A stretch of 63,012 nt of DNA, counting the filler, from Porpidia crustulata (taxonomy: Eukaryota): NCBI GenBank assembly GCA_964255105.1. It is 8 parts of 8 records of this genome, joined end to end, with 100 filler letters (N's around TTAATTAATTAA, not from the genome) between each part and the next. Parts side by side here need not be neighbours in the genome. Positions count along the whole stretch, not along the records: positions 7,910 to 15,711 come from CAXUWE010001231.1; 7 more parts are not named here. One strand, written 5' to 3'. The notes beneath the pieces were generated by a model, which ran no database searches, had not been told where the DNA came from, and was given only the letters and a program-made list of their open reading frames with translations. A program made the position numbers and the translations under genes. Below, piece after piece: positions 7,810 to 55,248 of this stretch. Within the stretch, counting starts at the first letter, position 1; each line of letters starts with the position of its first letter.

Positions 7810-7909
7810 NNNNNNNNNNNNNNNNNNNNNNNNNNNNNNNNNNNNNNNNNNNNTTAATTAATTAANNNNNNNNNNNNNNNNNNNNNNNNNNNNNNNNNNN
7901 NNNNNNNNN
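7810..7909. other. Artificial contig linker N44-TTAATTAATTAA-N44 (also at 15712-15811, 23613-23712, 31508-31607, 39398-39497, 47275-47374, 55149-55248)
   Basis: Identical 100-nt spacer with stops in all six frames occurs seven times; the flanking contigs are size-sorted. Confidence 0.99.
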
Positions 7910-10900
7910 CCCCTTCAGCAGCCCACCCCCCCATAGCAGCGACATCAGCAACGGTGCTATCCTCGCTCCTTTCCTTGACCAATTCGAACCCTTCAATACC
8001 GTCCTTACTCAAATCAACACTAACACTCCATGTCTTGAGCTTTTGATCGTTACTCGCTGTAGTGAATCTCAGCCGCTGCTTCTTGTCTGGTGGCCTTTCG
8101 GATTTTCTGGGGGTCAGGCATTGCACGGCCGTGATGGCAGAAGCGTGGGCATTGGGGATGAGGATGGTGGAGTGGAGAGGCTTGTCTCCCAAAAGGACTG
8201 GGTAGGGAGTGATTCGTGTGAATGCCAGTGCGCCATCATCGCCAGCAGTGGTAAGGAGAACATCTGTAAGGGTGAGGGAGGTAGTTATTAAAGCCTTGAT
8301 TGTGCTTTGGTGAAGAGGACTCCGGATGCTCCAGCTTAGCGTGGATATTGGAGTATTAGCGGGTTCTGGCGGTTGGTGTGTCAATTTTCTGCTCTGCCTG
8401 CTTAATGAGAAGCCGTGAGTAGCTAATGCTAGAGTCAAGGGCCAGAAAGCCACATGACCATCGGTGCTTGCTGTACAGAAATAGATGCTGTGACCTAGAT
8501 GAATATGACTTATCTGGGTGAGGCAGGCGGTGGTATAAGATCCAGACAACATGATTTCAAAGGGTTGTTCCTCAACGCCGGGAGTGTAGTGGTAAATCTA
8601 GGCGCATCAGCTAAGATCGGGTGATGTGATATCGGTACCAAGTCTCACCCGTAATGAAGAGTCCGAGTAGATCAGGCTTAAAATGTAATGATGACCTACT
8701 GAGTCCTCAATCTCACTATCTCTAACGTAGATTTCCATGATATCAAAATCCATGATCCGCAAATCACGCGATTCCGTCACAGATGGAAATCGCGCCTCAA
8801 TAACGATCCCAATGCCGATACAAGGCACAGGTCGCACTCGCCAGATGAAAAACTCCTCAAACCCTCCTGCACTGAATAAATATCTTCCATCAGAAGACCA
8901 CTTCAGCTGCTGAATACCCGTCGCATGGTTCGTGAAGATTCCTAGACACTTGAAGTTCTTTTTCACATGGTCATTTTTCTCTGTATTGTAGCTAAAGATA
9001 CGGATCGCAGTATCCTCGGCACCAGTGGCTATGAACTTGATCCAGTCGCTTATATCGTCTTCCAGTCGAGATGAGATTGTCATGGCTTTGATCTCTCGAC
9101 CATGGCCACCATCTCGGAAAACTTCAGGTGAGGTTTCTGTCTGCGAGTAAACGTTACAAACGGATGCCTTCGTCCATACAAGACTGCCTGAACTCCTTTG
9201 GTCTCTATCGAATCTGTACGCCCAGTTTCGATTTGCACCCCCACACTCCACTGTCATCACTTCGACTCTCTTAGTCTCGTTCCATACCACGAAGTTTTTG
9301 CCACGAAAGCCCCAGAGAAGTAAATCATTCGAGGCTTGAATAAATGTGGCGCCTTCTAAACTGGGGCCAAACGGCGGAGCACAAGTATGCACTGTATGGA
9401 GGTGTATATGCGTTTCTTCGTGCTCTTTCCGCTCCACAAGTAGTTGATGGATCCTGTAGTTTCCGTCCCGGCTCGTGGTCAGAATGTAAGATCCTTGGGA
9501 GTAGTCGGCCGAGTCTACTACTGGTACCCCTTCAATTGTTGTAACGGCATCCCCACTATGTCCAACTATGTGGTCTGAGATGTAGCCACTTGTAATTGAG
9601 CTTTTCTCATTGTAGAGATCGTATACTAACAGACGCCCACTGCGGGATCCCAATACAAGAAGACTATGGGCTATAATAAATAAGGAGCTGGTAGGAGTGG
9701 AATTTGGGAGATTTTGGGGGAGTTCAATGATTTTGTGATGGAAAATTTTAATTGTCTTGTAATCTGCTGGAACATTCCGAAAACCATTGAGATCATGTCC
9801 GCTGATCCCGATAATCAAGAAATGTCCTATTGACGAATTCAGGCACGATGCAAAGGCTACTATACCAAAAGAGATATTTTCCTCCCCTTGCGACAGATAG
9901 CTCGAGCTGAGCGGAAGTTCCTGGGCCAAGAGACAAGCGATCTTGCCTGAGAGTTTTATGACAGGACAGAATTGCTGGGGATATCGATATATGTATATCA
10001 TGCCGTCGCTTCCGCCGAGTAAGATAGCGTTTGACGACTGAATGTTTGCTATGATGCAGGATGACCTCAACTCGTTTATTTGACCGACATTCTCCCAAGA
10101 CACTAGCAGAAGATTTTCACCTGTCCTTCGTATACTATCAGAAGCCTTCGCCTTGTTTATGAGAGTTCCCACTAGAATATTGCCATATTGAGTGGAAGTA
10201 ATAAATCGATCTTCATCGAGCCATGCATAATTCTTGAAGGAATCTATGTTAGCCGAAGCAGTCTTTTGCTTCGTGGCCCCCGTACTAGCGGCTTCTGGTA
10301 AATCGTTCGTAGATATAGTGTTTTTAATTAACGGCTTGAAGTCCAGCTCTCGAACGTATGACGCGGCTGCAGTGTATTCTTTGTTCGGTCCTTTGACAGT
10401 ATAAGTCACTGCCCATTGAAGCAACTCTGCCTCTTTTATCTGGAAAATGTATTCTGCTTGATAATCATCCTGAACACACAAATGATAGCCTTTTGCACAC
10501 CGTGATAGTATACTGTCTTTCCCATTCAAAAAGTCCATTTTCTCGAATTCCAGAGCATGAAATAGATAATCTACAGACCAATGGTCCACTGTGGAGACAA
10601 ACCATATGGAAATAGTATCTGTACTTGCCTGATAACGGTAGACATACTGACGTGTCGCCTGCATGACGAACCCTTGTTCAGTGGTGAACTTGCCACTCTC
10701 GCTGTAGAGATATTCAAGGTCGAAGGCAATATCGGTAGGCTCTCTTGCCTCAAACACGGCCCGTCCCTCAAAAAGTCCCGATGGATAAGTTGAGATAACA
10801 CTATTTAGATTACGACGAAGCAGCCACTTTCCTGAGAGGCACTGAATCAATGCTTTTCGGGTCGAGCTTGATTGATCACATGTATTACAAGGAGCTCTGG

Positions 10901-12288
10901 TATTCTCTGCACGGGCTTCTGTATCTCTGTAAACTTGTTTGATGGTCCATCGACAGGAGAGTGCATTTGCAGCTTGTGACGGATCTTTTGTTCCAGGAGC
11001 GTAAGAGATGATTCGCCCATCAGCTCCCCCCGTAGACAATAGAAACTCGCTACAAGAATTTTGAATTTCAGCTATAGCCCAGATGTTTTTTCCGTAATGA
11101 AACGCATGGGTAGACTGATGACGCAGAGTCACAGCTTGGAAATTTGCCGTCTTGCTCGAGATTCGAGCAGTAGAATCAAACGCCAGCTGCCAGACCTGAA
11201 CTGTGCTGTCCTCCCCGTACGAGACCAAGTTCCAAGTATCCTTCTGTCGTAGCAGAAATTGCAACCCCCATATTCGCGAGCTATGGGCCATTGCTGTGGC
11301 TAAACATGAGCCCGATTCGCTTTGAGCAACATCACGAGAGCGTTCAATCGTATATGCGCCCAATAATTCTTTAGTATCATTAGGAAATGCGTCACTTTCC
11401 AAACTCGAGATATCCCATATCCTGATGGTGCGATCATCACTACAACTGGCTAGTATACGTTTAGGAAGGTTAATATTGGGATGATATATTTCTTCAGAAA
11501 TCCTTACACCAAAGACAGAACCTTCGTGGCCTGTGAATGTGTAGTGTAAAAGACTAGAAGGTGCCTTTTCAGGATAAATGGAATGTGAATTGATAAGAAA
11601 TGACCACAAAATTACCTCACCAAAAGCAGTTCCTGCTGCGACGAGGCCACGTTTGCCGGGCTGCCAGACCACATGTGCAGAGTATAAGATAGAACGCGGA
11701 CCTGCCGCAATCAGGCACAGATTGGGTAATGTTTCAGACTTGTCCTCAGAGCCAGCGTCGAGGCTGAAGGTCAAGACAGTATTATGTGCGGTCACTAGTA
11801 CTGCTTTGCAGATATGTGAGGCAGAGTTAGACACAGGACCATCTGAAGCTACCTGGGTAAAGCATGCATCAAATATCCAATCGTCTGCTTGGATTTCTTG
11901 TGCAATTCGCCGAGTGTGGATTCCAAAACGATCTATGGCATTTGGTGCCTGCTCGATGACGATTAGGCTTACGGAACGGCCACCCCATACCACCACAGCT
12001 CCGGACCAACTTTCATCACTATCGCCCTTTGTGGTGGGCCCAATACAGAAGCCATGGAGAACCTGAGATTCAAAGACTTGCTCAGAATCGAGTAGCTGAT
12101 GTGTATTATGGTCGTAAACTCGTAAGAAAGGCCCTTCGCCGGCCACGAGTAGTTTCCTTGATCCGAACTCCAGAAACGCCAAAACAGTCACGGGATTTAG
12201 AATATGGTCAACCTAGGGCATATAATGTCATTAATTGATCTTGCTCTACATCAGGATCGACGTAGCTGACCTCCAAGTGATCATGCAT
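7910..12288 (-). CDS. TRM734: WDR6/Trm734 (Rtt10)-like WD40 protein, tRNA 2'-O-methylation cofactor, with an internal DUF6314-like domain; 3' truncated by contig end
   Basis: SILYSA, AAGTAFGEVILW, GHEGSVFGV, LASCSDDRTIRIWD, VECGGANRNW, GGHGREIKA, ATGAEDTAIRI. An 18-nt first exon (12288-12271) and introns 12213-12270 and 8598-8648. Confidence 0.88.
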
Positions 12289-12533
12289 CTGGACCAAATG
12301 TAGTATCTTCAAAAGACTAGGCAGGCCGAAAGACGAACTCATTAGAACCGTATGATTGGTTGAAGTCGCTTTGACGCCGAAGCGCCCCAACCGCTGGCTG
12401 AGCTTTCCCTAATAAGGCTGCGCTATCAAATTTTTGATAAATCTTGGGATTCCCGAAGCACAAAATAGGACAGTCTAGGCAAATTTAAAGTCTAACCACA
12501 CCAAATAGACAGCTCCCCTTCGCCTCCTAGAAA

Positions 12534-13282
12534 ATGTCCTCTTCCCCCACCCCTGAGCAGCGTGAGAAGAAAGACGCGGAGGCCCGCGCAAAGGAAGCCG
12601 CAGAACAAGCCCAACTCCCCTACAAGTGGACCCAAACAATCGGCGACCTTGACATCACTATCCCCGTTCCCGCCAATCTTCGCGGCCGCGACATAAATGT
12701 TATAATCACCAAAACCCACCTCAAAGCGGGTGTAAAAGGGCAGGACCCAATAATAGACGTAATTATTTCCCTTCAAGTTCTCTACTATACCGTCTTCTAG
12801 TTCCAGCTAAATTCCGGTACACTCGTAGGGTCCAATGCCACACCCCGTACACGCCGATGAATCAACCTGGACGCTCGAGTCCCTGCCCTCGAACCTCAAA
12901 GAAATATCCATCCACCTAGACAAGTCCAACAAGATGGAATGGTGGCCCTCGGTGACAACGAACGCACCTTTCAAGATCGACACGAGCAAGATCACGCCGG
13001 ATAACAGTAAGCTGGGGGATCTGGACGGGGAGACGAGGGGAATGGTAGAGAAGATGATGTATGATCAGCGGCAGAAGGAAATGGGGAAGCCAACGAGCGA
13101 TGAGAGTAAGAAGATGGATATGTTGAAAAAGTGAGTATATTACTCTCATGAGATTTCTTACTCCAGAAGAATTGGAACGTATCGGGATCTGTGAGATAAA
13201 AAGGTTGCGGCTAATATATTGTGTTTTCAGGTTCCAGGAGCAGCATCCGGAGATGGATTTCAGTAATGCGAAGATGGGCTAA
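12534..13282 (+). CDS. nudC: Nuclear movement protein NudC (CS/p23 domain); exons 12534-12758, 12829-13130, 13231-13282
   Basis: [51 protein letters not shown] and spliced C-terminus [17 protein letters not shown]. Confidence 0.96.
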
Positions 13283-15450
13283 ATTTGATGTGGGAAACAT
13301 GAATCTTTGCATAGCGCTGGCTTGGATGGACATATTTGAAACACTTTGACGAACACTGCTAGGCTAGTAGATACCAAGACGTTCCACACATGACTGGGGT
13401 GACCCCTGGGCAGAACTGCCGCCAAGGAGCCTTGTAAAGTCTGTGGAAATAATAATTACCTGCTGAACGTTTCTCTAGAAGGGACACCCTGTGAGATGGT
13501 ACGATACTGGGCATACCCCGGTTATCTTGCATAACCGGCTTCTATTGATGAACTCAAGCGTCCGACATCCTCAAGTTCATACAAGCTGTTTTACTCTCCC
13601 AGAACACAAGCCAAGACTTCGGTCCTCTCAGTCCATTCCGAGTCTTTCCACCTACCATATGAGCGTCTGCAGGCGGTCTCAATCTTGTTGAGTATTTCTA
13701 GTAGGCCCGGACGATTCCATGCCGTGTAGCAAAGAGAACCGACATGTATTACGAAACTTCACCCCCAGTGATGTTCTCGCTAATCTGGAAAGATGTTTAA
13801 GAAAATCCGTGATGATCAAAAGTGAGAGATGTATGAAAGACACTGGGGACACATTTCTATGTCCTGCCATAAACACGCTGGCCTTCGAGCCCAAGCATCT
13901 CAGAAGAATCAGCCATGAGGCAAAGTACATGATTCTCTGCTACGACCATCCTCCATAGAAAGATCATATCAACAATTTGCTGCAAGTAACCGAGAACAGC
14001 AGGTCCTAGGCGCACTCGTAAGCGCTACGGCAACTTCGATTGATACGATAGCTCTACAGATAAGCCAGGTATTTGAACCACCACACTCTTAGAATGGAAG
14101 TCTTGCAAGAGACTGATCTGTTTCTCGTTTTCTAAAGTCTTCCCGAAAGCAGTCGTCGAGATTTTGGTTTTTCTAACCATCTCCATAATGTGACGGTCAT
14201 TCGTACGGCCTTCGTCAACGATTGTGCCAAACTGCTCAACTTATTTGAGACAGAGATCCACTTGCCTGCAGGTCTAGGAGTCGGCTTTCAGCCTTTTAGT
14301 CAATGGAAAAGCGCGGCAATCTAATCAGCTCAGCAACGCTGGGTGTGTTTCTGTGGCTTTTTTTGAGTGTCAATTCTAAATCGCGTGAGACGGCTGCACT
14401 ATTTGCGCCAGTGTCTTCAAGTCCGCTGATGTCTTCCTGAGCCATCCTGATGTTTCTGAAATTGAAATTTTAGACAGAGTGCCTAATGAGCAATGGGGAA
14501 GAGAATCTACCCAACGGGGAAAGCTGCTTCGGTCGTAGTAGCCGACTTCCTATCTCCTAGATTATGGTAGTTGTCGAAACCAACGTAATGGGAGCAAACG
14601 GCGGAACCATCTTACATCATCGCAAACCATTAAGTAGTAAGATGCTAAAGGATAGTACTCGTATATCACAGATGCTACTTGGTGAGGAGATATTATTCAC
14701 AGTGTTAATGTCCGTCCCTGGGTCAAGAGACGCACTCTGTTACGAGACAAACTGTAGGAACTTTGATTCCAAGCGACTCTGACTTAGTGAATGCATGGAA
14801 ATCTCCCGTAAATTCATATCGGTCTTGTGTTGCAGCCAATCCTGAATACTCCTGAGGTCGGCTACTGGAAAATTACATTCGTGTCATCGCCCCCCTGATT
14901 TGCGGCGAGCCTCCTTTCCGTAGCGTAATGGCACTCGTCCACCACAGTACCACCATTACGCTTGTGCTATTGTACGAACTTATAAATGATCCATGTCCGA
15001 GTCTTAGAATCCTACAGGAACACTGTGAAGTCATTGCCAGCCTTGTGGCAGCCCTTGCGCCCTGCATTCATGCAACATCGCGCGCTGATTGGTCCTTCTC
15101 AGTCCAAGCGGTACGATCTCGGTTAGTACAAAACAGGTCCCCAACATCTCACGTAATAACGGGCGTGTAATTTAACCTATGAAAGCTAACCAAGCCGAGA
15201 CTGTGGCTTGTAAGCCTGTGGCTGGGCTCTTCTAACGAACGCAGCTGTCCGAAAGTGACGAGAAAGCGAAAGGCACTGACTGGATTTCACAGCGAAACCC
15301 TAAGACATTCCAGCACAGTGAAGACGGCCACTCGCCGCTACTGCAGAAAACCCTTTATGTCAGCTTTTTGTCAATCGCAAATGCACGTTTGCTCGGCCGT
15401 TTGTGTTTGCTGTGTACGTCAAATCATATGTAGGTATTCATGTCACCACC

Positions 15451-15711
15451 ATGGCTGAAGCAGCTGCCGTTATCGGACTCGTTGCCTCAATTGCCACTCT
15501 TGTCGAGCTCACAGCTAAGGTCGTCTCTCGACTGCACGAGTTCACCTCCAAGTCCTCAGAAGTCCCTGAGTCATTTCGCTCTCTGTCGACCTGCTTACCT
15601 TTATTGACGGCAACGCTCAAACATATCCAGTCCCAGGCAGAGTATGGACGCTTTTTAGATGATGTAACAAAAGCCCTGAAAGCAGTTGTTGACGACACTT
15701 CCAAACAAGTG
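15451..15711 (+). CDS. N-terminal SesA/HeLo-like domain of a probable fungal STAND/NLR-type protein, truncated by contig end
   Basis: MAEAAAVIGLVASIATLVELTAKVVSRLHEF...VPESFRSLSTCLPLLTATL matches the typical N-terminal helical domain of fungal NACHT/NB-ARC proteins. Good start context ACCACCATGG. Confidence 0.7.
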
Positions 15712-15811
15712 NNNNNNNNNNNNNNNNNNNNNNNNNNNNNNNNNNNNNNNNNNNNTTAATTAATTAANNNNNNNNNNNNNNNNNNNNNNNNNNNNNNNNN
15801 NNNNNNNNNNN

Positions 15812-23612: not shown

Positions 23613-23712
23613 NNNNNNNNNNNNNNNNNNNNNNNNNNNNNNNNNNNNNNNNNNNNTTAATTAATTAANNNNNNNNNNNNNNNNNNNNNNNNNNNNNNNN
23701 NNNNNNNNNNNN

Positions 23713-30875: not shown

Positions 30876-31607
30876 TCCGCCTGGCCCCTGGCAAACCTCT
30901 ACTTACCCACGTCGACGACATAAATGGCCTTCCACAGGTTCCCCTTCGTATTACTTAGACGTAAAGCATGGAGTCTCAAACCAGAAAGGTGCACATACAC
31001 CTGCCTTCCGATTCCGAAAATCCACACGCCCCTATCGACGTTACCTTGATCTTTCACAAGTCCATTCCAATCCCGGAGTTCCGGGCCCCACGAGTATGTT
31101 TTATCCATCTATTGGCGTCAAGGAGGGCCGGTTCTTGGCGTAGCACTCCCTCCCAGCATTATTATCGGTGGTAATGACGACACACACACAGGCACGGCAC
31201 GGAAGGGAGATTGAAGTATCTATTTTTAGCCCCCCATCGGGGCAAGCCTGCTCGTATATCGGGCTCTGAGCTTGAACGTTCGGCGGCTCCATAGATGGGG
31301 GTTTTCCCTGGTTTTGCCGGTGGTTGGAGAGGTTGGTAGCGTTTTTTTTGCTTGACCGGGTTGGATGTGTGTCCATAGCTTTGCGCAACGAAAACGCTCT
31401 CCATCGCATTCTTTTCCACATGCTCTCGAGGCGATTTTCGTGTCGTCGCCAGGAACCAGCAGAAAACCATCTCGTCGTTCGTTTCTCATCTTTGAGAATG
31501 GTTCATGNNNNNNNNNNNNNNNNNNNNNNNNNNNNNNNNNNNNNNNNNNNNTTAATTAATTAANNNNNNNNNNNNNNNNNNNNNNNNNNNNNNNNNNNNN
31601 NNNNNNN

Positions 31608-37260: not shown

Positions 37261-39497
37261 GTTAAAAGATTCGGATCAAGGTCGTGTGATCAGATGGTGT
37301 CTCTGTAAAGAAGAGTATCTGGTCGAAATGCGAGGTTGACGATGGTTTGAATAGATTCCAGAAATGTTCCTCGTTCATGCCTAGTTGTCGGTGTAGGAAT
37401 TCTGGGGCAAAAGGGTAAAGTGGTGCTATTCGTACTGGGCAGCTACCGTTAGTGCTCGCGTAAGGTAATTAATCCCCGCTGCAGATGTCGTCCGAGGTCT
37501 GCGAGTTCTCTCGTTGAATGTATTCGCGTTTGGTTGGAGGAATGATTTATTTGATGGTCTTGGTGTTTATTTTGGATAGATGTTTATCGCATCGATGCTA
37601 CTTTGGAGAGGCAGATATTGGGGATATTTTGGAGGGGTCAGATTATTATTTCATCACAAAAGGGGCTTCCCCCGCGATATGCCAATATCCCTCTTGCCCT
37701 CTTAATCCCTCTTGGTGCTGAAATTCACCTGTGGCTGCTTTTAGAGCCGCTCCCTGATCTCATCCTTCCACTACACTATCTCCTAGCTTATGTCCGTATT
37801 TTACAGAAACTTGAGAAATAATAGATGATGATTATTCGATAACAAAAACGATTAGAAAAGAATAAGAGTTCCATAGTGTCAACGTTCATGTCAGACGGTA
37901 AGATTCCATTTCACCGTGTCCATGCGATCAGATCTGTCGACTGTAGAGCAGAACACGAGCATCTATACCAAGTCTGGAGGAACGGTAAATTCTTCTGCAC
38001 TTGAGAACATCAACCTTACCCGTACTACTCTTCTCGGGCACCTTGAGAGCTTCCAACAAATTTTCTAAAGTTGGATAGAGTTCTGGGGGACCTCGATGAG
38101 GAAATTTGCCTCCATACCCTACACCACGAAGCTTCCGAAGATACCATTTTAACGTTTTGAGAGACAGAATTCAAGTCCCAATAATAGAAAGGAATCGCTG
38201 TATACGATCGTACCAGCCGTGCGAATGTGGCTGATCATGACGGTGGCAACGTCTCCATGGCGATGGCGGCGACGATGCCGACGCACCGAGTCTATCCAAA
38301 AAATACCGTCCGACTGCTGTGCGTGCACGGTCATGACTGTCACTGTGCACACAACCGTAAGGGCTTGAGCCACACCCAGTACCACATTTTGCAACGCCGC
38401 TTTTCGAAGCTGAAGGTCGCCCACTAGGGCATAGTGGTGATGTATCCATACCGCTGCGTTACCCTTAGCTTGTCCTTACCTCGACGAATGTCTCTCTTCC
38501 AGCCCCCTCGATCTGACCCTCTTGCCCCCCAATTTTCTCCCATGCGTAGTATTTATTTTACCTCATCCGTCAACCGTGGCACAAACATGGGACGGATCTT
38601 TCCCTCCCGATACCACTGCCAAAGACATAGATTATCGACTTGATCGTCACTGCCTGCCTATCACATCGTCACTACCCATTCACAACCTGATTTCCTACCG
38701 TGGGGAATGATTGCGATCATCATCGACTCTTACGTTAGAGGACACGTAGTATCGCTGGAAGCCCGATTGGTACGTGTTAGCAAAGGGACCATCCCGACGT
38801 CCGCCCGACTTCCCCGGATCCAGCGCTGTTAAGTCTACCACTAGAGCACTCTAGCTGCTTCATCGCCCCTGTCTGTCGCGTGGCCGGTTGGACCTCAGAA
38901 GTTTGATCGCGTTGGTTATCAACAAAGGAATGGCTAGTTTGTCGTATTCCACTAGAGTCGTAGTCCAGGTCCGAATGCTTAAAGTGACTCGTACATTTTT
39001 GTGATTCCGTTAGGCATACGAAAGGGCCGAAAAGCAGAAAGCCGTTAGATCCGGCATCTCCAAATCCAGCGCTTTGGTGCTTCCGTTACCGCGATGCAGA
39101 ACCTGCCCAATCAGATCGCGTGCGACCCACAAACGCAGCGAAAGGGGAGCTGAAAGTGATCGGAGGGGGAAAAGGGGATGATATCTGACAGGCGTCCACA
39201 CACTCCCGGCGATTGGAAATTGGCCGACCAAATCGTCGATAATCGCCTTTTGCAAGACCTGATCTCACTTTTACCATCCACGATTCGTGATCTGCAGGAA
39301 CCCGGACTGGAACATGATATCATGTCTCTCGCACCCGCCCACCTCGCCCAGCTTGCCCCTCCTCTGATGGCCCCGCAGATCTCACCAGCAACCACGCNNN
39401 NNNNNNNNNNNNNNNNNNNNNNNNNNNNNNNNNNNNNNNNNTTAATTAATTAANNNNNNNNNNNNNNNNNNNNNNNNNNNNNNNNNNNNNNNNNNNN

Positions 39498-46767: not shown

Positions 46768-49700
46768 AGATGTGATTTAGTAAACAGAGTCGGCGATGGC
46801 AACACTTGGAAGCAACCCTTCATGCTGTAGAATGTCGTCAGCAATCTTGCTATCAGTGGACACGGCCAGGACTCTCGAAAATTCAAGCCAGAGCATCTAT
46901 GCCCGCTTTGACACACATCTCGCTCCAATACAAACATCCCCCAAACCCACAACCACAAACGAAACACAGCAATCCCGCTCCCATCATCTCCCCAACCCCG
47001 TCATATACAGGACAAAAGTCGCAGCTCCCAAACGCAAAAAACCCTTGGAACCCCAAGAACGAAAGAAGAAAGCACTACATTACAAATTTTGGGAAGAGGA
47101 AATGTCAAGGGATAGATAAGATCGGTTTATCAAGTCACCACTTCACTCAGACGTCGAAGACACTGCAGACAAGCACTCAAAATATATCTAGTGATAAGAA
47201 GTATACATAACAACGATACAAAATCATATATCCAACCAAAACCCCCCACCCCCAATAATCCTACTAACTCAACANNNNNNNNNNNNNNNNNNNNNNNNNN
47301 NNNNNNNNNNNNNNNNNNTTAATTAATTAANNNNNNNNNNNNNNNNNNNNNNNNNNNNNNNNNNNNNNNNNNNNGTGGTTGATATGTTCGGCTTTTTGGG
47401 GGGGGAGAATAGCGTCTAGAGTAAGTTAGAATATGGATGTTGAAGATTAGATAGTCGTTGGCTACGTAGAAGGTTCACTACATATCAGATCCGGCTTTTA
47501 ATGATTATAAAAAGTTTCGATTCTCGTAGATCTATAGAGTTAGTTTGAGTATGATGTGTGTGAACTAAAACTTACATACTGAAAACGAGGAAAATTGAGG
47601 GCATTGAGGAACTTGATGTCGTATGGATGTCGTCTCGAAGAGCCTCCTGATGGATTCTTTCTCTCGCAATGGGGTCCTAGATCGTAAGACTGCAGCGACG
47701 TCAGCATCTTGCTTGAAAGTTGTTGAGTTTCTGATTCTCGTCGAGTTCACAGTTACTGCCTTCATTGGATCTATCGTTTGATGGGTGTTTCTAGAAATGG
47801 ATGTATGATGGAAAGAAGTGACGTCATGAAGACAAAAAGATAATGACAGTCGTAGTCTTCTAATGAAAAGTTTGTTCAGATCTTTGTTATTGGAAATCGC
47901 CGTTAAATCAAGCGAGACCCGACGATAAGTAAGTAGTAGCGATTGCATAGATCGTATACCTCTCAGATAAAGGACTTGAACATCGCGCTATACCATCGAT
48001 ACGAAAATTAAACAACCTCGAATAATGCAGAACACCCGTCTTTGACAGGCTTTTTCAAGCTATAAGTGCCAAATCCCAGAGATTCTCGCCATAGAGATTG
48101 AGATATGTCACTCATCAACAGCTAGTGTCATGAATGAAAACATATAAAACTTATGACTATGATTGAATGAAGACTTAGTAGGTCAAGCAAGAATTCGGAG
48201 GAGCCGTGTAAGTGTTGAACGAAGAATTTCTAATATCATTCCATATCATGATCTCAGAGATGTCCGAGCATGTTGAATAAAGCACACGTATCAGATATAA
48301 TCGTATCTATAGACACGTTAATCCAACATCCATCAGACACTCTGACGAAAAACGCATTATCATAGCCGTCACGCATCATCCGTGAAAGCACTAATCCACC
48401 TGCAATCACTCACAGCGTGCGCGTGCTTCTTGGTTTTGCGCCAAGTATCCGACCTTCAACAGGGGATCGTTTCTGTGAGAGCGTTGACCAAAAATCCACG
48501 ACAACGATCGTGATTTCAAGCAGAAACACTTGATTCTCTGCCAAGCATCCGGTTTTAAAGAAAGACTATTCGATAAAACATGTGCTTCTCTTCGAAAGTC
48601 AACCACGTCCGTCAAATCACCGTTTCTTATCAAATCACGACTGTCAAAGCAGTACCGTTTAATACTCAGCCGCCCATCCGGACTTCATATCCAGAGTCTA
48701 TGAATATCGATCCTGTTAAAACATTGACCAAAGCTCAGGTTGCCATTGCCTACGTAGCTACCCCATCGGGAACCGATGCTAGAGATCTTGAGTCTGGCAT
48801 ACCAGCAGATACGTTGATTGTTTTCAGACCCACAAACGTGATATTCCTCCGATACCCCGAAGCTCATCTTAAACATACCTATATGAAGAAGATGTTCGTC
48901 TGAGATCTGCAGATAGGAGTTTGTGAATGCTTCGAGGTATTCTGCAAATTCAAGTGGAGATTTCTATGGTGAATATATGGAGTAGATGAGGTTAAAAGAC
49001 CCACAAAGAGCAAAGCCGCAGGTCTTATAAAGTAAACCGACGGTAAAAGCGGTGCGGCAACGTGTATGAAATGAATAGCTCCAATATGAAAGATAACGAG
49101 ACACAAGACGAGAGAGCCAATATTTACCTTTGAGAGCTCTGTTTAACAATTATCCCTATTTTTTTCTCCTCACCGACAGCCATGACTTTTCCAACACCAC
49201 GGGCCTCTACTGCTAGATCCAACCCCCAAGTTCTACAAACTGCGCCTCACCGGTCTTTTCAACATCTCTACTTCCACCTTTAATTCTGCTGAGAGTTTTC
49301 AGCAGATCAGTACCCCGTGAATCCATGTCAAACCCCACGTTCATACCTAAAATAGTCATAGAAGTTACACGTGATCAACCAGGACCTCGGGCGGGCAGTA
49401 AATGGTACCTCGAGGTGAATGGTATAGATCCACTCGTGCCACTTAAGATCCCGGCATCACCTCTGGGTATCGCTGAATTCGCTTTGTATTCAACCTCCCA
49501 ATCTACTACGAGCAGATTTCTTCTGCAATAATGAATGATCAAGGTTTTACCCGAGATCGGATAAGAGCTTATGGGGGTTACCTTACTGGTCTCTCATTTT
49601 CAACTACCTACTAATCCGCAACAATTCTCACACTTCTCAAGTCCAAAGTTCGCTGCATCGTCCGTTGCCGATAATCATAGCGGGGTGAACTATCCTAGAA

Positions 49701-52711: not shown

Positions 52712-54349
52712 TCAAAGCCTGCCAGCTCTATCGCATCTAGGTGCCGAGTCACAAGGTTGCCGCTTCTTCACCAGAGTGCGACTCTGTCTTCTCGTCACTG
52801 TATTATCTATGGCTTTGTCCGCGGAATCACGGACTGATAGAGAGACTCTTCTCGTACGCAGATTGAGGCAGTCGCCAGGACCGTTATCTATCAAACCACC
52901 TTCGTACATACTGACCTTTCCTTTTCTCAAGCTTTCATATGAGCTTCTGCGCTTCTCAATTCTGGAGTTTCTCCGGCTGGGAATTCGGACAGGTCTCGGT
53001 AGGATAGCTTCCGTGGAGGACCCTGTAGAGTCTGGTTGTCGATAACTTAGCGGCACAGATCCGTATCCATTTCGATTGCCCTGCCAGAATCGAAGCTCTT
53101 CCTGAGAAGGTTGAGATGCGTTTGGTAACGATCCCTGCCGCCGATAGCTGGCGGAAGGCATCATTGGCCGTCTCCGTGTACTTTTGTAAACACCTCCAGC
53201 ATCCGAGCAGCGGGCTGCGTAATGTCGATATCTTTCTGGGATCGCCGGCAATTCAGGCTTGTCATCTACATCCATCGTGCTAGATACCGGAGAGCGAAAA
53301 GCGCCATTGAACGACAAATTGCTGTAAGAGCTCTTTGTACTAAGGTAACGACCTATCGTGGTCTCAGTGGGTGTGCTTTGTTCACTGTACATTGAGGAAG
53401 AGCTTGTGGTGGCGGTCTGAGTCCGCAATAGAAGTGGTTTGGATGAGTCGGGGCTGTGTCCATATGACGGCGGTTGTTGGAATGCCAGAGGTGGAAGCCA
53501 AGANNNNNNNNNNTGTGGTCATCCCCGCGGGGTCTCCCAAGCCGGGCCCCCCAGCGGCGTCGCCGCTGGTCGAGGATAATGAGGATACGATTGAGGATCA
53601 CAAAGATCGTACTCGACACCATGCGATTCTGCATCACCAACAGTGGTTCGAGGCTCTGCACAAGAGCATCCAATTTCCGACTCGATCTTGTGTCTGCTTG
53701 TGAGGAAGGTTGGAAAAGGCTTGTCGGAGATTTGGAGCGAACTAAATATCACACATGAAAGTACCCTAGGATCACAATCAATTGTCCGTTGGCGACTGAC
53801 TGCTTTCCAACGAAGGCCTTACATAGAAAGCAAAGACATTGCTATACTTGCTTGCTGAAGTTTGCAGATGTCGATGTTATTCCATGGTCTAGTGTGTAGC
53901 GTGTTGCGCGCACAGATAGTAAGCCTCGAAGCAGTGACCAACCCTATTGCGCCCGCAGCTAGCCATATAGTGAAGACCAGGCTCGATATTATTGCGTAGG
54001 CAGAGGCAAGGCTACTCTTCTGGCATTGAATTCCGTCATATCGGCTGAATTTTCGGCGAATGATTAGATGGAAGGCCACCAATATCAATGAGAAGGTTGA
54101 CTGTATGACAGTCCGATTAGCAAGTGCCAATGGGCCAACTCAGTAGTGCCTGAGTAGACTTACACCAGCAGCGATCAGAACTTCGCCAGCGATAAGGAAG
54201 ATGTCAGAATAACCAGATAGGAGCATATACGGAACTCCCAAGGCCTGAATCAACGACAGAGATATCAAAGCATATAATGAAATAACTGTTACGGCGGGTG
54301 ACAGATGCGTCCTTGACTGGCCCCCTGATATCATTGTCCGAACAGACAT
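52712..54349 (-). CDS. Hypothetical protein with N-terminal transmembrane helices and a Ser/Arg-rich tail; spans a 10-N scaffold gap
   Basis: Hydrophobic ORF segments 54140-54364 and 53819-54130 separated by intron-like GT..AG spacers; long hydrophilic ORF 52712-53428. Frame across the gap at 53504-53513 is unresolved. Confidence 0.5.
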
Positions 54350-55248
54350 GGTAGGTCCGACCAAGGCATTCAGGAAAGAGAATGAACCACAGCTAAATAA
54401 TATATGACATAAAAAACGTCTTTCAAGTAGCGTCCAAGAGGCTGGAGCTGAAACACCATTGGAATGCTATGAAATGCGACGAAATGCAAGATACGAGAGA
54501 TGGCGCAAATAGCTTGATGCTTTCCATAATAAGGCTAAATATTTCCCGAGCATTCCAGTCATCCCTGTAGTCTAGCCACAGTGCTGAAAGATGTTCCATA
54601 GATATTTCTATGGTTCTTATAACTCTTGGCTAGACACTCTCGAGACCGAAAGCCATAAATCAAACATTGATATTGCTACCACAATAGCATTATTGCTGCC
54701 TCTGGACGCTGATGTGCTACAGCCCATTCCTTTGAATCTCGAAGCCATCAGCCACTCGAGATGTCAAGATACAGCAATTCCAGAAATATTAGCAAGTCAA
54801 CTGACCATCTGCTCGGCCAAGGAGTATGCCACCATCACCGACGCAGAACGTTGTCTGTCGAATGAACGTCGCCTGCAAAACATTGGGATATGTCGGGCGC
54901 CGGAAGATGCCGAGACCCTAGTCGCTGTCGTATTTTACAACACTTGTAATTTATGTCGAGGGGGAGAACGTTCTTCACCCAATGGAACAAAATCGAATGA
55001 CGGGAGGGATATTGCTTGCGCTAGCATTTGAGATGGAGAAATCCTTCTCAGAAATGGAACGGAATTCTGATGCTTCAAATCTTGATATTCGATTTCCATG
55101 ATAGCTTCAGCATCCATTCAACATACCATAGTGCCCATCCAGTCATACNNNNNNNNNNNNNNNNNNNNNNNNNNNNNNNNNNNNNNNNNNNNTTAATTAA
55201 TTAANNNNNNNNNNNNNNNNNNNNNNNNNNNNNNNNNNNNNNNNNNNN

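What the first reader, a model, noticed from the sequence alone, without database searches (positions are those of the whole stretch)
10345..10850. DUF6314-like domain inserted inside the Trm734/WDR6 beta-propeller protein
Seen: an in-frame, intron-free block of about 165 aa (LSGKWLLRRNL...FEGRAVF...YLYSESG...RQYVYRY...LFHALEF...HLCVQDDY...W...YTVKGPNKEY...Y.R) lies between WD40 repeats, flanked by linker-like segments. Knowledge: yeast Trm734 and human WDR6 are described as all-propeller partners of Trm7/FTSJ1. This motif string is what I recognise as DUF6314, a domain of unknown function that also occurs stand-alone. Inference: a lineage-specific insertion that could add a ligand-binding or catalytic module to tRNA modification, and hint at DUF6314 function.
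Basis: partly seen in the sequence, partly recalled or inferred. Interest (0 to 1): 0.72.

Follow-up and report, generated by a model that had tools for sequence, protein, structure and literature searches.

The report
DUF6314 barrel inside lichen-fungus Trm734/WDR6
The tRNA-methylation helper protein Trm734/WDR6 of this lichen-type fungus really does carry an extra, strongly conserved small barrel domain of unknown function between two of its propellers, an inherited feature shared by its relatives in lichen fungi.

Summary
Confirmed. The minus-strand gene (exons 12288-12271, 12212-8649, 8597-7910, cut by a contig end) is a Trm734/WDR6 orthologue (yeast 6jp6_A, E 6.3e-37; model TM 0.67). Residues 451-621 (nt 10350-10862) are a full-length Pfam DUF6314 domain (E 9.1e-26). 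By strand count in the model it lies in the c7(BPA)-to-d1(BPB) linker, between poorly conserved, low-confidence tethers.

It is no assembly artefact. All 120 best orthologues listed carry it; the named ones are lichen-forming Lecanoromycetes. Yeast Trm734 and 5 distant metagenomic orthologues lack it. The propeller-embedded copies are compatible with one clade, hence one insertion.

The domain is the best-conserved part of the protein. It folds as a helix plus a ten-stranded calycin-type barrel; the nearest solved folds are bilin lyase CpeS and nitrobindin-like proteins. It keeps an H-x-C-x-x-D-x-Y motif invariant in all 339 bacterial and fungal family members examined.

Elsewhere DUF6314 stands alone, is fused to a flavin monooxygenase in fungi, or follows one in bacterial operons. 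It is therefore probably a small-molecule-binding or catalytic module. Its ligand, and any effect on tRNA methylation, are inferred only.

The architecture is auto-annotated in public databases, but full-text searches found no paper on it. It is a new variant of a known kind, of moderate interest.

The parts
12271..12288 (-). Inferred exon 1 (MHDHLE). An in-frame ATG 54 nt upstream (12342-12340) is an alternative start.
   Evidence: Sequence read, translation. With this start the protein has 12 residues before the conserved Pro, as in the consensus of 77 aligned sequences. Inferred, no RNA evidence.
12213..12270 (-). Inferred intron 1, 58 nt, GTCAGC...CCCTAG, phase 0
   Evidence: The main reading frame opens directly after the AG.
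8649..12212 (-). Exon 2, 1188 codons: most of the Trm734/WDR6 orthologue, including the inserted domain
   Evidence: PDB 6jp6_A (yeast Trm734) E 6.3e-37. AlphaFold2 model pLDDT 81.1, Foldseek 6jp6_A E 3.9e-40, TM 0.67.
10944..12212 (-). Residues 1-423: strand d7 of propeller BPC, then six blades and strands a7-c7 of propeller BPA
   Evidence: The model has 28 strands before helix 424-437, which equals 1 + 24 + 3 as in the yeast topology (PMC6847430).
11433..11441 (-). S258-D259-D260, equivalent to yeast Trm734 SDD198-200, which is needed for Gm34 formation
   Evidence: Alignment; PMC11170731 section 5. S in 75 of 77 rows, D in 76 of 77 and D in 76 of 77. Translation checked.
10863..10943 (-). 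Residues 424-450: helix plus N-side tether, poorly conserved
   Evidence: pLDDT <50 at 439-449; mean pairwise identity 0.20 and 0 of 46 columns invariant, measured over residues 405-450.
10350..10862 (-). Residues 451-621: inserted DUF6314 domain, an N-terminal helix plus a ten-stranded antiparallel barrel
   Evidence: Pfam PF19834 E 9.1e-26. Domain model pLDDT 94.2, pTM 0.87. VIA-align Z 12.7 to 4tq2_A (CpeS) and 11.8 to 2fr2_A. 24 of 171 columns invariant.
10461..10484 (-). H577-L-C579-V-Q-D582-D-Y584: the family-wide invariant H-x-C-x-x-D-x-Y motif on the strand 7 / strand 8 hairpin
   Evidence: H, C, D and Y are each present in 50 of 50 bacterial, 220 of 220 Trm734-embedded and 69 of 69 other fungal DUF6314 segments. 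Translation checked.
10239..10349 (-). Residues 622-658: C-side tether, poorly conserved and low-confidence
   Evidence: pLDDT <50 at 625-655; identity 0.17, 0 of 37 columns invariant.
8649..10238 (-). Residues 659-1188: propeller BPB, the return strand of BPA and the first part of BPC, including DLRIMDFD (identical in yeast)
   Evidence: query 828-1188 aligned to yeast 463-792.
8598..8648 (-). Inferred intron 2, 51 nt, GTGAGA...CGCCTAG, phase 0
   Evidence: The joined reading continues the alignment to orthologue P0012.
7910..8597 (-). Exon 3, 229 codons: the rest of BPC, cut by the contig end (about 35 codons missing)
   Evidence: 38% identity to P0012 residues 1165-1375 of 1410.
7810..7909 (.). 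Artificial contig joint (N44 + TTAATTAATTAA + N44). Not part of the gene; it marks where the gene is cut.
   Evidence: (7 such joints; 0 expected by chance).

Best explanation
SHOWN. The gene encodes the orthologue of Trm734/WDR6, the three-propeller partner that positions tRNA for the Trm7 2'-O-methyltransferase at wobble position 34. In this lineage a DUF6314 gene of the stand-alone type was inserted into the linker that leads from strand c7 of propeller BPA to strand d1 of propeller BPB. The data are compatible with a single insertion event. The insert is an autonomous domain of about 170 residues, one helix plus a ten-stranded calycin-type barrel, held by two poorly conserved, probably flexible tethers of about 12 and 35 residues. 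It has been inherited vertically. It is the most conserved segment of the protein and keeps every residue that is invariant across the whole DUF6314 family, bacteria included: W463, R467, Y503, E505, R521, Y523, H577, C579, D582, Y584, K611. The propeller part keeps the residues needed in yeast for Gm34 formation.

INFERRED. The domain still performs the ancestral DUF6314 function. The fold, the dense cluster of invariant polar residues (His-Cys-Asp-Tyr on one hairpin), the fusion to class-B flavin monooxygenases in fungi and the operon linkage to them in bacteria together suggest binding, or thiol- or metal-dependent conversion, of a small molecule inside the barrel. Because it is tethered at the BPA-BPB hinge, beside the propeller proposed to hold the tRNA body, it most likely brings that ligand or chemistry to the Trm7-Trm734-tRNA complex, either gating methylation or adding a second step. 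The ligand and the effect on tRNA are not known.
For: Identity of the host: yeast Trm734 (6jp6_A) is the best solved relative, E 6.3e-37. The whole-exon AlphaFold2 model (pLDDT 81.1) matches 6jp6_A at Foldseek E 3.9e-40, TM 0.67. The yeast-essential SDD and His positions are present and kept in 75-76 of 77 aligned sequences.

Identity of the insert: PF19834 over the full profile, E 9.1e-26.

Position: the model has 28 strands before the insert, which equals d7(BPC) + 6 blades + a7-c7 (against PMC6847430). In a DUF-less orthologue (L033) 64 residues stand in place of the 254 residues here.

Real and inherited: 77 of 79 hits to the DUF region among long proteins are WD40+DUF6314 proteins. All 120 of the best 120 hits found with the C-terminal propeller alone carry PF19834. 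5 metagenomic loci have N-propeller, DUF and C-propeller in order. An independent assembly of the one run holding the stretch bridges both junctions with 0 differences.

One origin: in a tree of 129 DUF segments all 60 embedded copies fall in one group of 63 (SH-aLRT 90). A tree with them held together is not rejected (p-AU 0.872, and its likelihood is higher).

Selection: mean pairwise identity is 0.53 in the DUF, 0.45 and 0.48 in the propellers, and 0.17-0.20 in the tethers; invariant columns are 24 of 171 against 11 of 404 and 27 of 530. In 67 of 67 orthologues found without using the DUF, the DUF is more similar to the query than either propeller part.

Fold: domain model pLDDT 94.2. Z 12.7 to CpeS (4tq2_A), 11.8 to Rv2717c, 11.8 to OlmO, 10.5 to THAP4 nitrobindin. 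The Foldseek best hit is also 4tq2.

Family-wide site: H, C, D and Y of H-x-C-x-x-D-x-Y are present in 339 of 339 segments (50 bacterial, 220 embedded, 69 other fungal).

Coupling to flavin monooxygenase: 33 of 70 non-propeller DUF6314 proteins have an N-terminal FMO-like or pyridine-nucleotide oxidoreductase part. An FMO gene or fragment lies immediately upstream on the same strand in 3 of 18 bacterial loci outside the Rhodobacteraceae-type synteny. The bacterial FMO aligns with the fungal fusion over residues 5-522, E 2e-56.
Against: No experiment or RNA data bear on function. No ligand is identified. Sequence and profile searches find no solved relative of the domain, so the fold assignment rests on a predicted model, and the nearest folds have several different functions (bilin lyase, haem binding, spirocyclase).

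That the invariant residues line one pocket is inferred only from strand register.

The alignment used was gathered with the DUF as query, which favours DUF conservation; one search was run to control for this.

V606, G608, P609, K611 and Y613 are invariant in the bacterial set by construction, because those loci were fished with that motif. H-x-C-x-x-D-x-Y was not part of the bait.

Whether the fungus also has a DUF-less Trm734 copy could not be checked, because no genome is held. No FMO is fused here, so the FMO link may not apply to this copy.

The tree root is a midpoint, and 3 short proteins nest inside the embedded clade. One of them sits on a 1,063-nt contig and is clearly a fragment; the other two are unexplained.
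Confidence: 0.6

Rival explanations
1. Two functions on one chain. The DUF6314 domain keeps its own small-molecule function, but this has nothing to do with Trm7 or tRNA. The long flexible inter-propeller linker was simply a permissive site, and the fusion persists for co-expression or stability.
For: The tethers are long, unconserved and low-confidence, as expected for a domain that need not dock. The same domain works alone or with an FMO in other organisms. Yeast Trm734 is reported to have roles beyond tRNA modification (PMC11170731 abstract; PMC6847430 discussion passage).
Against: The fusion is retained without exception in 120 of the 120 best orthologues listed, across two subclasses of Lecanoromycetes. 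No case of secondary separation was demonstrated. Such persistence is easier to explain if the two parts work together, but it does not prove it.
Confidence: 0.25
2. Passenger domain. The barrel has lost its ancestral activity and serves only as a spacer or structural bulge at the BPA-BPB hinge.
For: Nothing positive. No assay or ligand is known.
Against: It is the most conserved segment of the protein. It keeps all family-wide invariant polar residues in 220 of 220 embedded copies. A mere spacer would not conserve a His-Cys-Asp-Tyr constellation shared with bacteria.
Confidence: 0.07
3. Neofunctionalised paralogue. The DUF-bearing protein is not the working Trm7 partner; a second, DUF-less Trm734 does that job in these fungi.
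For: The window's genome is not held, so a second copy cannot be excluded. Only the best 120 of 1098 hits could be inspected.
Against: The residues needed for Gm34 in yeast are kept. No DUF-less protein appears among the best 120 hits to the C-terminal propeller, although these include complete genomes of named species. The only DUF-less orthologues found are far more distant (25-29% identity).
Confidence: 0.06
4. Artefact. The arrangement comes from a chimeric assembly, or from a separate DUF6314 gene lying in an intron of Trm734 and read through.
For: The assembly is highly fragmented: contigs of about 7.8 kb were concatenated with spacers. The second assembly of the holder run breaks inside the domain, at 10644-10665.
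Against: There are 1201 codons without a stop across both junctions. The same order is seen in more than 200 proteins from many assemblies and in 5 metagenomic loci. Both junctions are bridged by contigs of a second assembly with no differences, though that run is probably the source of the window and so is not independent.
Confidence: 0.02

Closest known systems
Saccharomyces cerevisiae Trm734 (Rtt10) / human WDR6, partner of Trm7/FTSJ1 (PDB 6jp6, 6jpl; PMC6847430)
   Same: Best solved relative by sequence and by fold. It shares the topology of three seven-bladed propellers with BPB nested in blade 7 of BPA. The SDD, His and Arg-x-Trp positions of BPA and the DLRIMDFD stretch are conserved.
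   Different: Yeast has only propellers and short linkers. Here about 190 net extra residues, a DUF6314 barrel plus tethers, sit in the BPA-to-BPB linker. Overall identity to yeast is low (18% in the Foldseek alignment).
Stand-alone fungal and bacterial DUF6314 proteins (Pfam PF19834), e.g. the 187-aa proteins of Peltaster fructicola and Zasmidium cellare and the ~150-aa proteins of Rhodobacteraceae
   Same: Same Pfam family over the full profile, 38-51% identity to the fungal ones, and the same invariant residues. In the tree the nearest outside group to the embedded copies consists mostly of short fungal stand-alone proteins.
   Different: Those are free proteins of 145-260 residues. Here the domain is internal to a protein of about 1,450 residues.
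FMO-DUF6314 fusion proteins of fungi (e.g. Extremus antarcticus, 737 aa; Vezdaea acicularis, 736 aa) and bacterial FMO-DUF6314 gene pairs
   Same: The same DUF6314 domain, 44-48% identical. They are another example of the domain being recruited as a module.
   Different: The partner is a class-B flavin monooxygenase and the DUF is C-terminal. The protein here has no flavin domain.
Nitrobindin / THAP4 C-terminal domain, and S- and T-type bilin lyases (CpeS, CpcS, CpcT): ten-stranded calycin-type barrels
   Same: Predicted fold: CpeS 4tq2_A Z 12.7 (152 residues aligned, rmsd 3.3 A), Rv2717c Z 11.8, THAP4 nitrobindin 3ia8 Z 10.5, CpeT 9.9, CpcT 9.4. THAP4 is a precedent for such a barrel attached to a nucleic-acid-binding protein (abstract of PMC6275384, search listing).
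   Different: No detectable sequence or profile similarity, with 6-12% identity in the structural alignments. Haem or bilin binding is untested. The H-x-C-x-x-D-x-Y motif is not, to my knowledge, a feature of those families (recalled, not tested).

Membership tests
Trm734/WDR6 (auxiliary subunit of Trm7/FTSJ1) | Significant sequence similarity to a characterised Trm734 | tested here: met
   phmmer against PDB sequences: 6jp6_A E 6.3e-37, three aligned stretches covering BPA and BPB/BPC. The next hit is a generic WD40 protein at E 6.9e-07.
Trm734/WDR6 (auxiliary subunit of Trm7/FTSJ1) | Three seven-bladed propellers, with the chain starting at d7 of BPC and BPB nested between c7 and d7 of BPA | tested here: met
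   On a predicted model only. The strand count fits the published topology. Foldseek 6jp6_A E 3.9e-40, TM 0.67 normalised to the target; the next hits have TM <=0.35. The C-terminal ~260 residues were not in the model.
Trm734/WDR6 (auxiliary subunit of Trm7/FTSJ1) | BPA residues needed for Gm34 in yeast (SDD198-200, RLW204-206, H220) | tested here: met
   They align to S258-D259-D260, R264-I265-W266 and H310 (PMC11170731 section 5). They are kept in 75, 76, 76, 67, 58, 75 and 76 of 77 aligned sequences respectively. Yeast W218 and S219 are not kept (M308, A309).
Trm734/WDR6 (auxiliary subunit of Trm7/FTSJ1) | Binds Trm7 and is required for Nm34 on tRNA | not testable with these tools
   No Trm7 gene lies on this contig and no genome is held. 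This needs biochemistry or genetics.
Pfam PF19834 (DUF6314) | Match to the family profile above the curated cut-off, over the whole profile | tested here: met
   91.3 bits against a cut-off of 23.1, profile positions 1-131 of 131.
Pfam PF19834 (DUF6314) | Family-wide invariant residues (G-x-W...R, Y-x-E-x-G, R-x-Y, H-x-C-x-x-D-x-Y, G-P-x-K-x-Y) | tested here: met
   All are present in the window's copy. H, C, D and Y are invariant in 339 of 339 segments examined. The G-P-x-K-x-Y block is invariant in the bacterial set by the way that set was collected.
Calycin-type ten-stranded barrels (nitrobindin, CpcS/CpeS, CpcT) | N-terminal helix followed by a closed ten-stranded antiparallel barrel | tested here: met
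   On a predicted model: helix 4-11 plus ten strands (pLDDT 94.2); Z 9.4-12.7 to members, with 23 chains at Z >= 8. This shows a shared fold, not a shared function.
Calycin-type ten-stranded barrels (nitrobindin, CpcS/CpeS, CpcT) | Detectable sequence or profile relationship to solved members | tested here: inconclusive
   Single sequence: no hit at E <= 10. Profile of 20 sequences: best E 0.7, to unrelated proteins.
Calycin-type ten-stranded barrels (nitrobindin, CpcS/CpeS, CpcT) | Binds haem or a bilin in the barrel | not testable with these tools
   Needs expression and spectroscopy.
FMO-coupled DUF6314 module | Class-B flavin monooxygenase fused to, or encoded directly upstream of, the DUF6314 domain | tested here: not met
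   The protein has no flavin or NAD(P)-binding family. The two upstream reading frames scanned on the 7.8-kb contig carry a CS domain and a SesA N-terminal domain. The link is seen in relatives only.

The most novel reading that the evidence does not exclude
DUF6314 is a so far unrecognised Cys/His-dependent enzyme or cofactor-binding barrel. It normally works with a flavin monooxygenase on a small metabolite. In bacteria its gene also sits beside biotin-related genes: bioY, and in one case a BPL/LplA-family ligase gene. In lichen-forming fungi it was captured by the Trm7 partner Trm734, so that wobble-base 2'-O-methylation of tRNA is either gated by that metabolite or followed by a second, lineage-specific chemical step on the anticodon loop.
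Probability: 0.15. Interest if true: 0.8.

Novelty: new variant of a known kind. Interest (0 to 1): 0.5.

Why it matters
Trm734/WDR6 is described as a pure propeller scaffold whose job is to position tRNA for Trm7. Here a whole class of fungi carries a strongly conserved, enzyme-like barrel hung on the hinge between the Trm7-binding and tRNA-binding propellers. If the two parts cooperate, this would be an accessory activity, or a small-molecule input, built into this tRNA-modification complex.

It also gives a concrete handle on DUF6314. The family runs from Proteobacteria to fungi with an absolutely conserved H-x-C-x-x-D-x-Y motif and a recurrent flavin-monooxygenase partner. The full-text searches run here found no paper naming it, and no solved structure turned up by sequence or profile search. 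The fusions point to testable partners. The practical reach is limited: lichen fungi are hard to manipulate and the ligand is unknown.

Tried and rejected
1. Stand-alone relatives by word-index search ('shorter'): 112 candidates, none scored. The exhaustive search then found them, so that blank meant nothing.

2. Own-genome searches for a second Trm734 copy, for Trm7, and for free DUF6314 or FMO genes: not possible, because no genome is held.

It was replaced by a degenerate motif scan.

4. Organism names for the window's nearest relatives: none are recorded. The window's own lineage, and hence the age of the insertion, stay open. Only the best 120 of 1098 hits could be inspected, so orthologues of intermediate distance were never seen. 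ESM Atlas neighbours of the whole protein are WD40-only Ascomycota clusters of about 1080-1160 aa, but at scores of 0.87 these are leads only.

5. RNA evidence: no RNA holder is listed for the stretch. The single holder was laid as contigs.

6. Complex prediction of BPA + BPB against the DUF: no verdict (score 0.00, controls not run, alignments not used). It says nothing either way about docking.

7. Profile search of the domain against PDB sequences: nothing significant. NCBIfam has no model for the domain.

8. Earlier notes of this scan: none on this genome or on this sequence.

9. Haem or bilin binding as the specific function: considered because 8 of the top 15 structural neighbours handle tetrapyrroles. 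It is not adopted, because the matches are at fold level only and the other top neighbours are a spirocyclase, BFA1, a designed barrel, an anti-sigma factor and other non-tetrapyrrole barrels. A hemC neighbour in one bacterial locus (L094) and a HODM-like neighbour in another (L099) are single cases.

10. Biotin as the ligand: suggested by the bioY and BPL neighbours, but most cases are one Rhodobacteraceae synteny block. It is kept as a lead only.
Full report
THE OBSERVATION

On the minus strand, one reading frame of 1201 codons runs from 12212 to 8607 without a stop. Pfam finds PF19834 (DUF6314) at residues 459-621 of this frame, over the complete profile (1-131 of 131), with E 9.1e-26 and 91.3 bits against a curated cut-off of 23.1. 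WD40 repeats are found on both sides.

GENE MODEL AND CONTEXT

The window is not one piece of chromosome. Seven copies of N44-TTAATTAATTAA-N44 (0 expected by chance) divide it into eight contigs of about 7.8 kb. The gene's true context is therefore 7910-15711 only.

I infer three exons:
- Exon 1: 12288-12271 (MHDHLE), followed by a 58-nt intron GTCAGC...CCCTAG.
- Exon 2: 12212-8649 (1188 codons), followed by a 51-nt intron GTGAGA...CGCCTAG.
- Exon 3: 8597-7910, which runs into the contig end.

The start fits the consensus length of 77 aligned sequences. Exon 3 aligns to residues 1165-1375 of a 1410-residue orthologue, so about 35 codons are missing. No RNA data were available, so the introns are inferences.

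Upstream lie a divergently oriented CS-domain gene and, at the far contig end, the start of a SesA-domain gene. Neither is obviously related to the finding.

THE HOST PROTEIN

- The best solved relative by sequence is yeast Trm734 (6jp6_A, E 6.3e-37). Everything else is generic WD40 at E >= 6.9e-07.
- An AlphaFold2 model of exon 2, built on 77 sequences (pLDDT 81.1, pTM 0.68), matches 6jp6_A at Foldseek E 3.9e-40 and TM 0.67. The next entries have TM <= 0.35.
- The yeast structure paper (PMC6847430, passages read) describes the chain as d7 of BPC, then BPA a1 to c7, a linker, BPB, back to d7 of BPA, then BPC. Trm7 sits in the BPA/BPC cleft, and BPB is proposed to hold the tRNA D-arm.
- The residues that Funk et al. 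(PMC11170731, section 5 read) found necessary for Gm34 are SDD198-200, RLW204-206 and H220. They align to S258-D259-D260, R264-I265-W266 and H310 and are kept in 58-76 of 77 aligned sequences.

I therefore file the host as a Trm734/WDR6 orthologue. Binding to Trm7 cannot be tested here.

WHERE THE INSERT SITS

The model has exactly 28 strands before residue 424, which equals one strand (d7 of BPC) plus six four-stranded blades plus a7, b7 and c7 of BPA. After these come:
- a helix (424-437);
- a low-confidence stretch (439-449);
- the DUF (helix 451-458 and ten strands, 461-621; block-mean pLDDT mostly 84-97, with a dip to 58 in the loop at residues 561-570);
- another low-confidence stretch (625-655);
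- the first strand of the next propeller at 659.

The domain therefore lies in the c7(BPA)-to-d1(BPB) linker, between propellers and not inside a blade. Yeast residues 295-463 correspond to query residues 401-828. In one DUF-less metagenomic orthologue (L033), 64 residues replace the 254 residues found here between the last BPA match and the first BPB match.

REAL, INHERITED, LINEAGE-RESTRICTED

- A search with the DUF region among proteins of 660-2102 residues gave 79 hits. 77 were WD40+PF19834 proteins, one was the window's own protein, and one was an FMO-DUF6314 fusion.
- A search with the C-terminal propeller alone (residues 880-1188) gave 1098 hits at E <= 1e-10. Only the best 120 were listed, and all 120 carry PF19834.
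- Every hit that carries an organism name is from a lichen-forming genus: Imshaugia, Alectoria, Lepraria, Dirinaria, Xanthoria, Teloschistes, Caloplaca and allies, Letrouitia, Xylographa, Trapelia. I checked two in the taxonomy. Xylographa is Ostropomycetidae and Imshaugia is Lecanoromycetidae, both in Lecanoromycetes. The placement of the others is from my own knowledge.
- A motif scan of metagenome contigs for DLRIMDFD returned 33 loci. Five have N-propeller, DUF and C-propeller in order (53-55% identity). Five have N- and C-propeller with no DUF (25-29% identity), and Pfam finds no PF19834 in them. Five are cut contigs with only the C part. Eighteen are unrelated.
- Yeast also lacks the domain.

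The insertion is thus shared by a large fungal lineage and absent from distant orthologues. The branch on which it arose was not determined, because orthologues of intermediate distance could not be inspected.

Assembly error is excluded by the number of independent assemblies showing the same order. In addition, Logan contigs of the one run that holds the stretch bridge both junctions with no differences. That run is probably the source of the window, and its own contig break lies inside the domain, at 10644-10665.

ONE ORIGIN

From 290 near-complete DUF segments I built a tree of 129. It held the query, 59 randomly chosen other embedded copies (the other 161 embedded copies were left out), all 39 from long non-propeller proteins and all 30 from short proteins.
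- All 60 embedded copies fall in one group of 63 (SH-aLRT 90, midpoint root).
- Three short proteins fall in that group too. One lies on a 1,063-nt contig and so is a fragment.
- The tree with the 60 embedded copies constrained to one clade had a higher likelihood than the quick free search, and p-AU was 0.872. One insertion is therefore compatible with the data, though not proven.
- The nearest outside group consists mostly of short proteins. One of them is the Peltaster fructicola protein, and another shares a 90%-identity cluster with a Zasmidium cellare protein.

CONSERVATION

In the 77-sequence alignment:

| Segment | Mean pairwise identity | Invariant columns |
|---|---|---|
| DUF | 0.53 | 24 of 171 |
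| BPA part | 0.45 | 11 of 404 |
| BPB/BPC part | 0.48 | 27 of 530 |
| The two tethers | 0.20 and 0.17 | 0 |

That set had been gathered with the DUF as query, so I repeated the test on the 70 orthologues that only the C-terminal search had found. All 70 have the DUF. In 67 of the 67 with adequate coverage, the DUF is more similar to the query (mean 0.478) than the N part (0.404) or the C part (0.407). The insert is the most constrained part of the protein.

WHAT THE DOMAIN IS

- A model of residues 448-625, built on 62 sequences, has pLDDT 94.2 and pTM 0.87. It shows one helix and ten antiparallel strands.
- Foldseek's best solved match is the S-type bilin lyase CpeS (4tq2, E 2.1e-4, TM 0.61), followed among others by Ycf58/CpcS, nitrobindin and Rv2717c.
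- An independent all-against-representatives alignment gives CpeS Z 12.7 (152 residues aligned, rmsd 3.3 A), Rv2717c 11.8, spirocyclase OlmO 11.8, BFA1 11.7, CRL 11.5, a DUF3598 protein 11.4, THAP4 nitrobindin 10.5, CpeT 9.9 and CpcT 9.4. 23 chains reach Z >= 8.
- No sequence or profile match to any solved chain exists.

It is therefore a calycin-type ten-stranded barrel of the nitrobindin/bilin-lyase kind by predicted fold. That shows a shape suited to holding a small molecule, not a function.

THE FAMILY AT LARGE

An exhaustive phmmer search found 639 representative proteins at E <= 1e-3, of which 113 are at <= 1e-30. Among the held proteins three architectures appear:
- the propeller-embedded form;
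- proteins of 660-935 residues with the DUF at the C-terminus, of which 33 of the 70 non-propeller proteins scanned carry FMO-like or pyridine-nucleotide oxidoreductase families in front of it;
- short proteins with PF19834 only (37 of 70, seven of them 673-809 residues without a recognised second family).

ESM Atlas neighbours of the domain are 30 of 30 PF19834-only clusters of about 200 residues, mostly Ascomycota.

The five I tested are PF19834 at E 5.9e-26 to 2.4e-40.

Of the 53 loci with at least 4.5 kb held:
- 35 show one synteny, with purB beside the gene. Those with genus-level titles are Rhodobacteraceae. 21 of the 35 have bioY directly downstream.
- Of the other 18, from varied lineages, 3 have an FMO gene directly upstream on the same strand (full-length in L112 and L091, an 81-codon remnant in L095).
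- 2 of the 18 have bioY adjacent (Variovorax L038 and the MAG L047).
- 1 of the 18 has a BPL/LplA/LipB-family gene directly downstream (L095).

The bacterial FMO of L112 aligns with the N-terminal part of the fungal fusion P0152 over residues 5-522 (29% identity, E 2e-56). An FMO-DUF6314 pairing is thus seen as an operon in bacteria and as a fusion in fungi, which argues that the barrel works with a flavin monooxygenase on a small substrate.

THE CONSERVED SITE

I aligned 50 bacterial, 220 embedded and 69 other fungal segments to one profile.
- H577, C579, D582 and Y584 are present in 339 of 339.
- W463, R467, G483, Y503, E505, G507, R521, Y523 and F538 are nearly invariant in all three groups.
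- The V-x-G-P-x-K-x-Y block is also invariant, but the bacterial loci were selected with it, so only the fungal counts are informative for that block.

From the strand register of the model, H577 and C579 on strand 7 pair with D582 and Y584 on strand 8 across a two-residue turn. The conserved turns P-S-G, G514 and G-P-x-K lie at the same end of the barrel. This points to one site at that end. It is an inference, because I had no coordinates.

A His-Cys-Asp-Tyr constellation kept from Proteobacteria to fungi looks more like a catalytic or cofactor-binding site than a lipid pocket. From memory, and not tested here, lipocalin-type prostaglandin D synthase is a precedent for a calycin barrel with a catalytic cysteine.

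HOW IT MOST LIKELY WORKS

Shown:
- the host is a Trm734 orthologue with its functional BPA residues;
- it bears an inherited DUF6314 barrel in the BPA-BPB linker;
- the barrel is under stronger constraint than its host and keeps the family's universal site.

Inferred:
- the barrel keeps its ancestral small-molecule function;
- being tethered by about 12 and 35 flexible residues at the hinge next to the proposed tRNA-binding propeller, it acts on or near the Trm7-Trm734-tRNA complex, as a sensor or as a second activity.

The main rival is that the two functions are unrelated and merely share a chain. A dead passenger domain, a neofunctionalised paralogue and an artefact are each unlikely, for the reasons given under the rivals.

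COMPARISON AND NOVELTY

The host works like, and is a member of, Trm734/WDR6. The insert is a member of PF19834 and resembles nitrobindin and bilin-lyase barrels in fold only. THAP4, a DNA-binding THAP finger joined to a nitrobindin barrel (abstract of PMC6275384 seen in the search listing), is the nearest conceptual precedent.

UniRef already labels such proteins 'DUF6314 domain-containing protein' by automatic annotation. Full-text searches for 'DUF6314' and 'PF19834' returned 0 papers. A search combining Trm734, WDR6, insertion and fungi listed nothing on such an insert among the 15 papers shown. Most subscription-journal papers are outside that library.

I rate it a new variant of a known kind. 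It is of moderate interest because the function is unproven and the organisms are hard to work with. The family-wide motif and the FMO coupling make the DUF itself a tractable target.

Noticed in passing
window 7810-7909, 15712-15811, 23613-23712, 31508-31607, 39398-39497, 47275-47374, 55149-55248: The window is a pseudo-molecule: eight contigs of about 7.8 kb each, joined by N44 + TTAATTAATTAA + N44 spacers (a six-frame stop linker). Genes on either side of a spacer are not neighbours in the genome, and genes at the spacers are truncated.
   Followed up: yes
window 53504-53513: A separate run of 10 N inside the seventh contig, presumably a scaffold gap.
   Followed up: no
window 12531-13134 (+) and 15322-15711 (+): On the same contig as the finding: a CS-domain gene (Pfam PF04969, E 3e-09) transcribed divergently from the Trm734 gene, with an apparent intron; and, at the contig end, the start of a gene with a SesA N-terminal domain (PF17107, E 2.8e-09).
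   Followed up: partly
proteins P0071, P0152 and 31 others; loci L112:2145-4051, L091:3452-5960, L095:3938-4702: DUF6314 is fused to the C-terminus of a class-B flavin monooxygenase in fungi. In bacteria it is encoded directly downstream of a homologous FMO (L112 FMO against the fungal fusion: E 2e-56 over residues 5-522). This gene pair is conserved across domains of life and has no known function.
   Followed up: partly
loci L034-L113 (e.g. L034:2246-4729; L038:3260-5278; L095:3055-4438): In 35 of 53 bacterial loci the DUF6314 gene lies beside purB, and in 21 of these bioY follows it on the same strand; the loci with genus-level titles are Rhodobacteraceae. bioY is also adjacent in a Variovorax genome and in an alphaproteobacterial MAG. 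A BPL/LplA/LipB-family ligase gene follows it in a Francisellaceae MAG. This may link the family to biotin or lipoate. Most cases are one synteny block, so it is a lead only.
   Followed up: partly
window 10461-10484 (-) and the same columns in 339 DUF6314 segments: An H-x-C-x-x-D-x-Y motif is invariant in every bacterial and fungal family member examined. It suggests a catalytic or metal/cofactor site in a family still listed as of unknown function.
   Followed up: partly
proteins P0111 (2867 aa), P0144 (3185 aa), P0125 (1389 aa, DUF at 1164-1331), P0271 (2012 aa), P0078 (2017 aa), P0163 (673 aa, DUF at the N-terminus): A few DUF6314-bearing gene models have odd lengths or extra families (XPG_I in P0078; PF14681, PF13207 and PF12710 in P0271). 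They are probably merged neighbouring genes in automatic annotations, but they could be further architectures.
   Followed up: no
loci L002, L018, L019, L020 (single reading frames of 1016-1314 codons) and L033: These are metagenomic Trm734 orthologues without the insert. Four are intron-free reading frames; L002, L018 and L020 (1016-1054 codons) are close to the 1028-residue yeast Trm734 chain. L033 needs a frame change or an intron near nt 1984-2290.
   Followed up: partly
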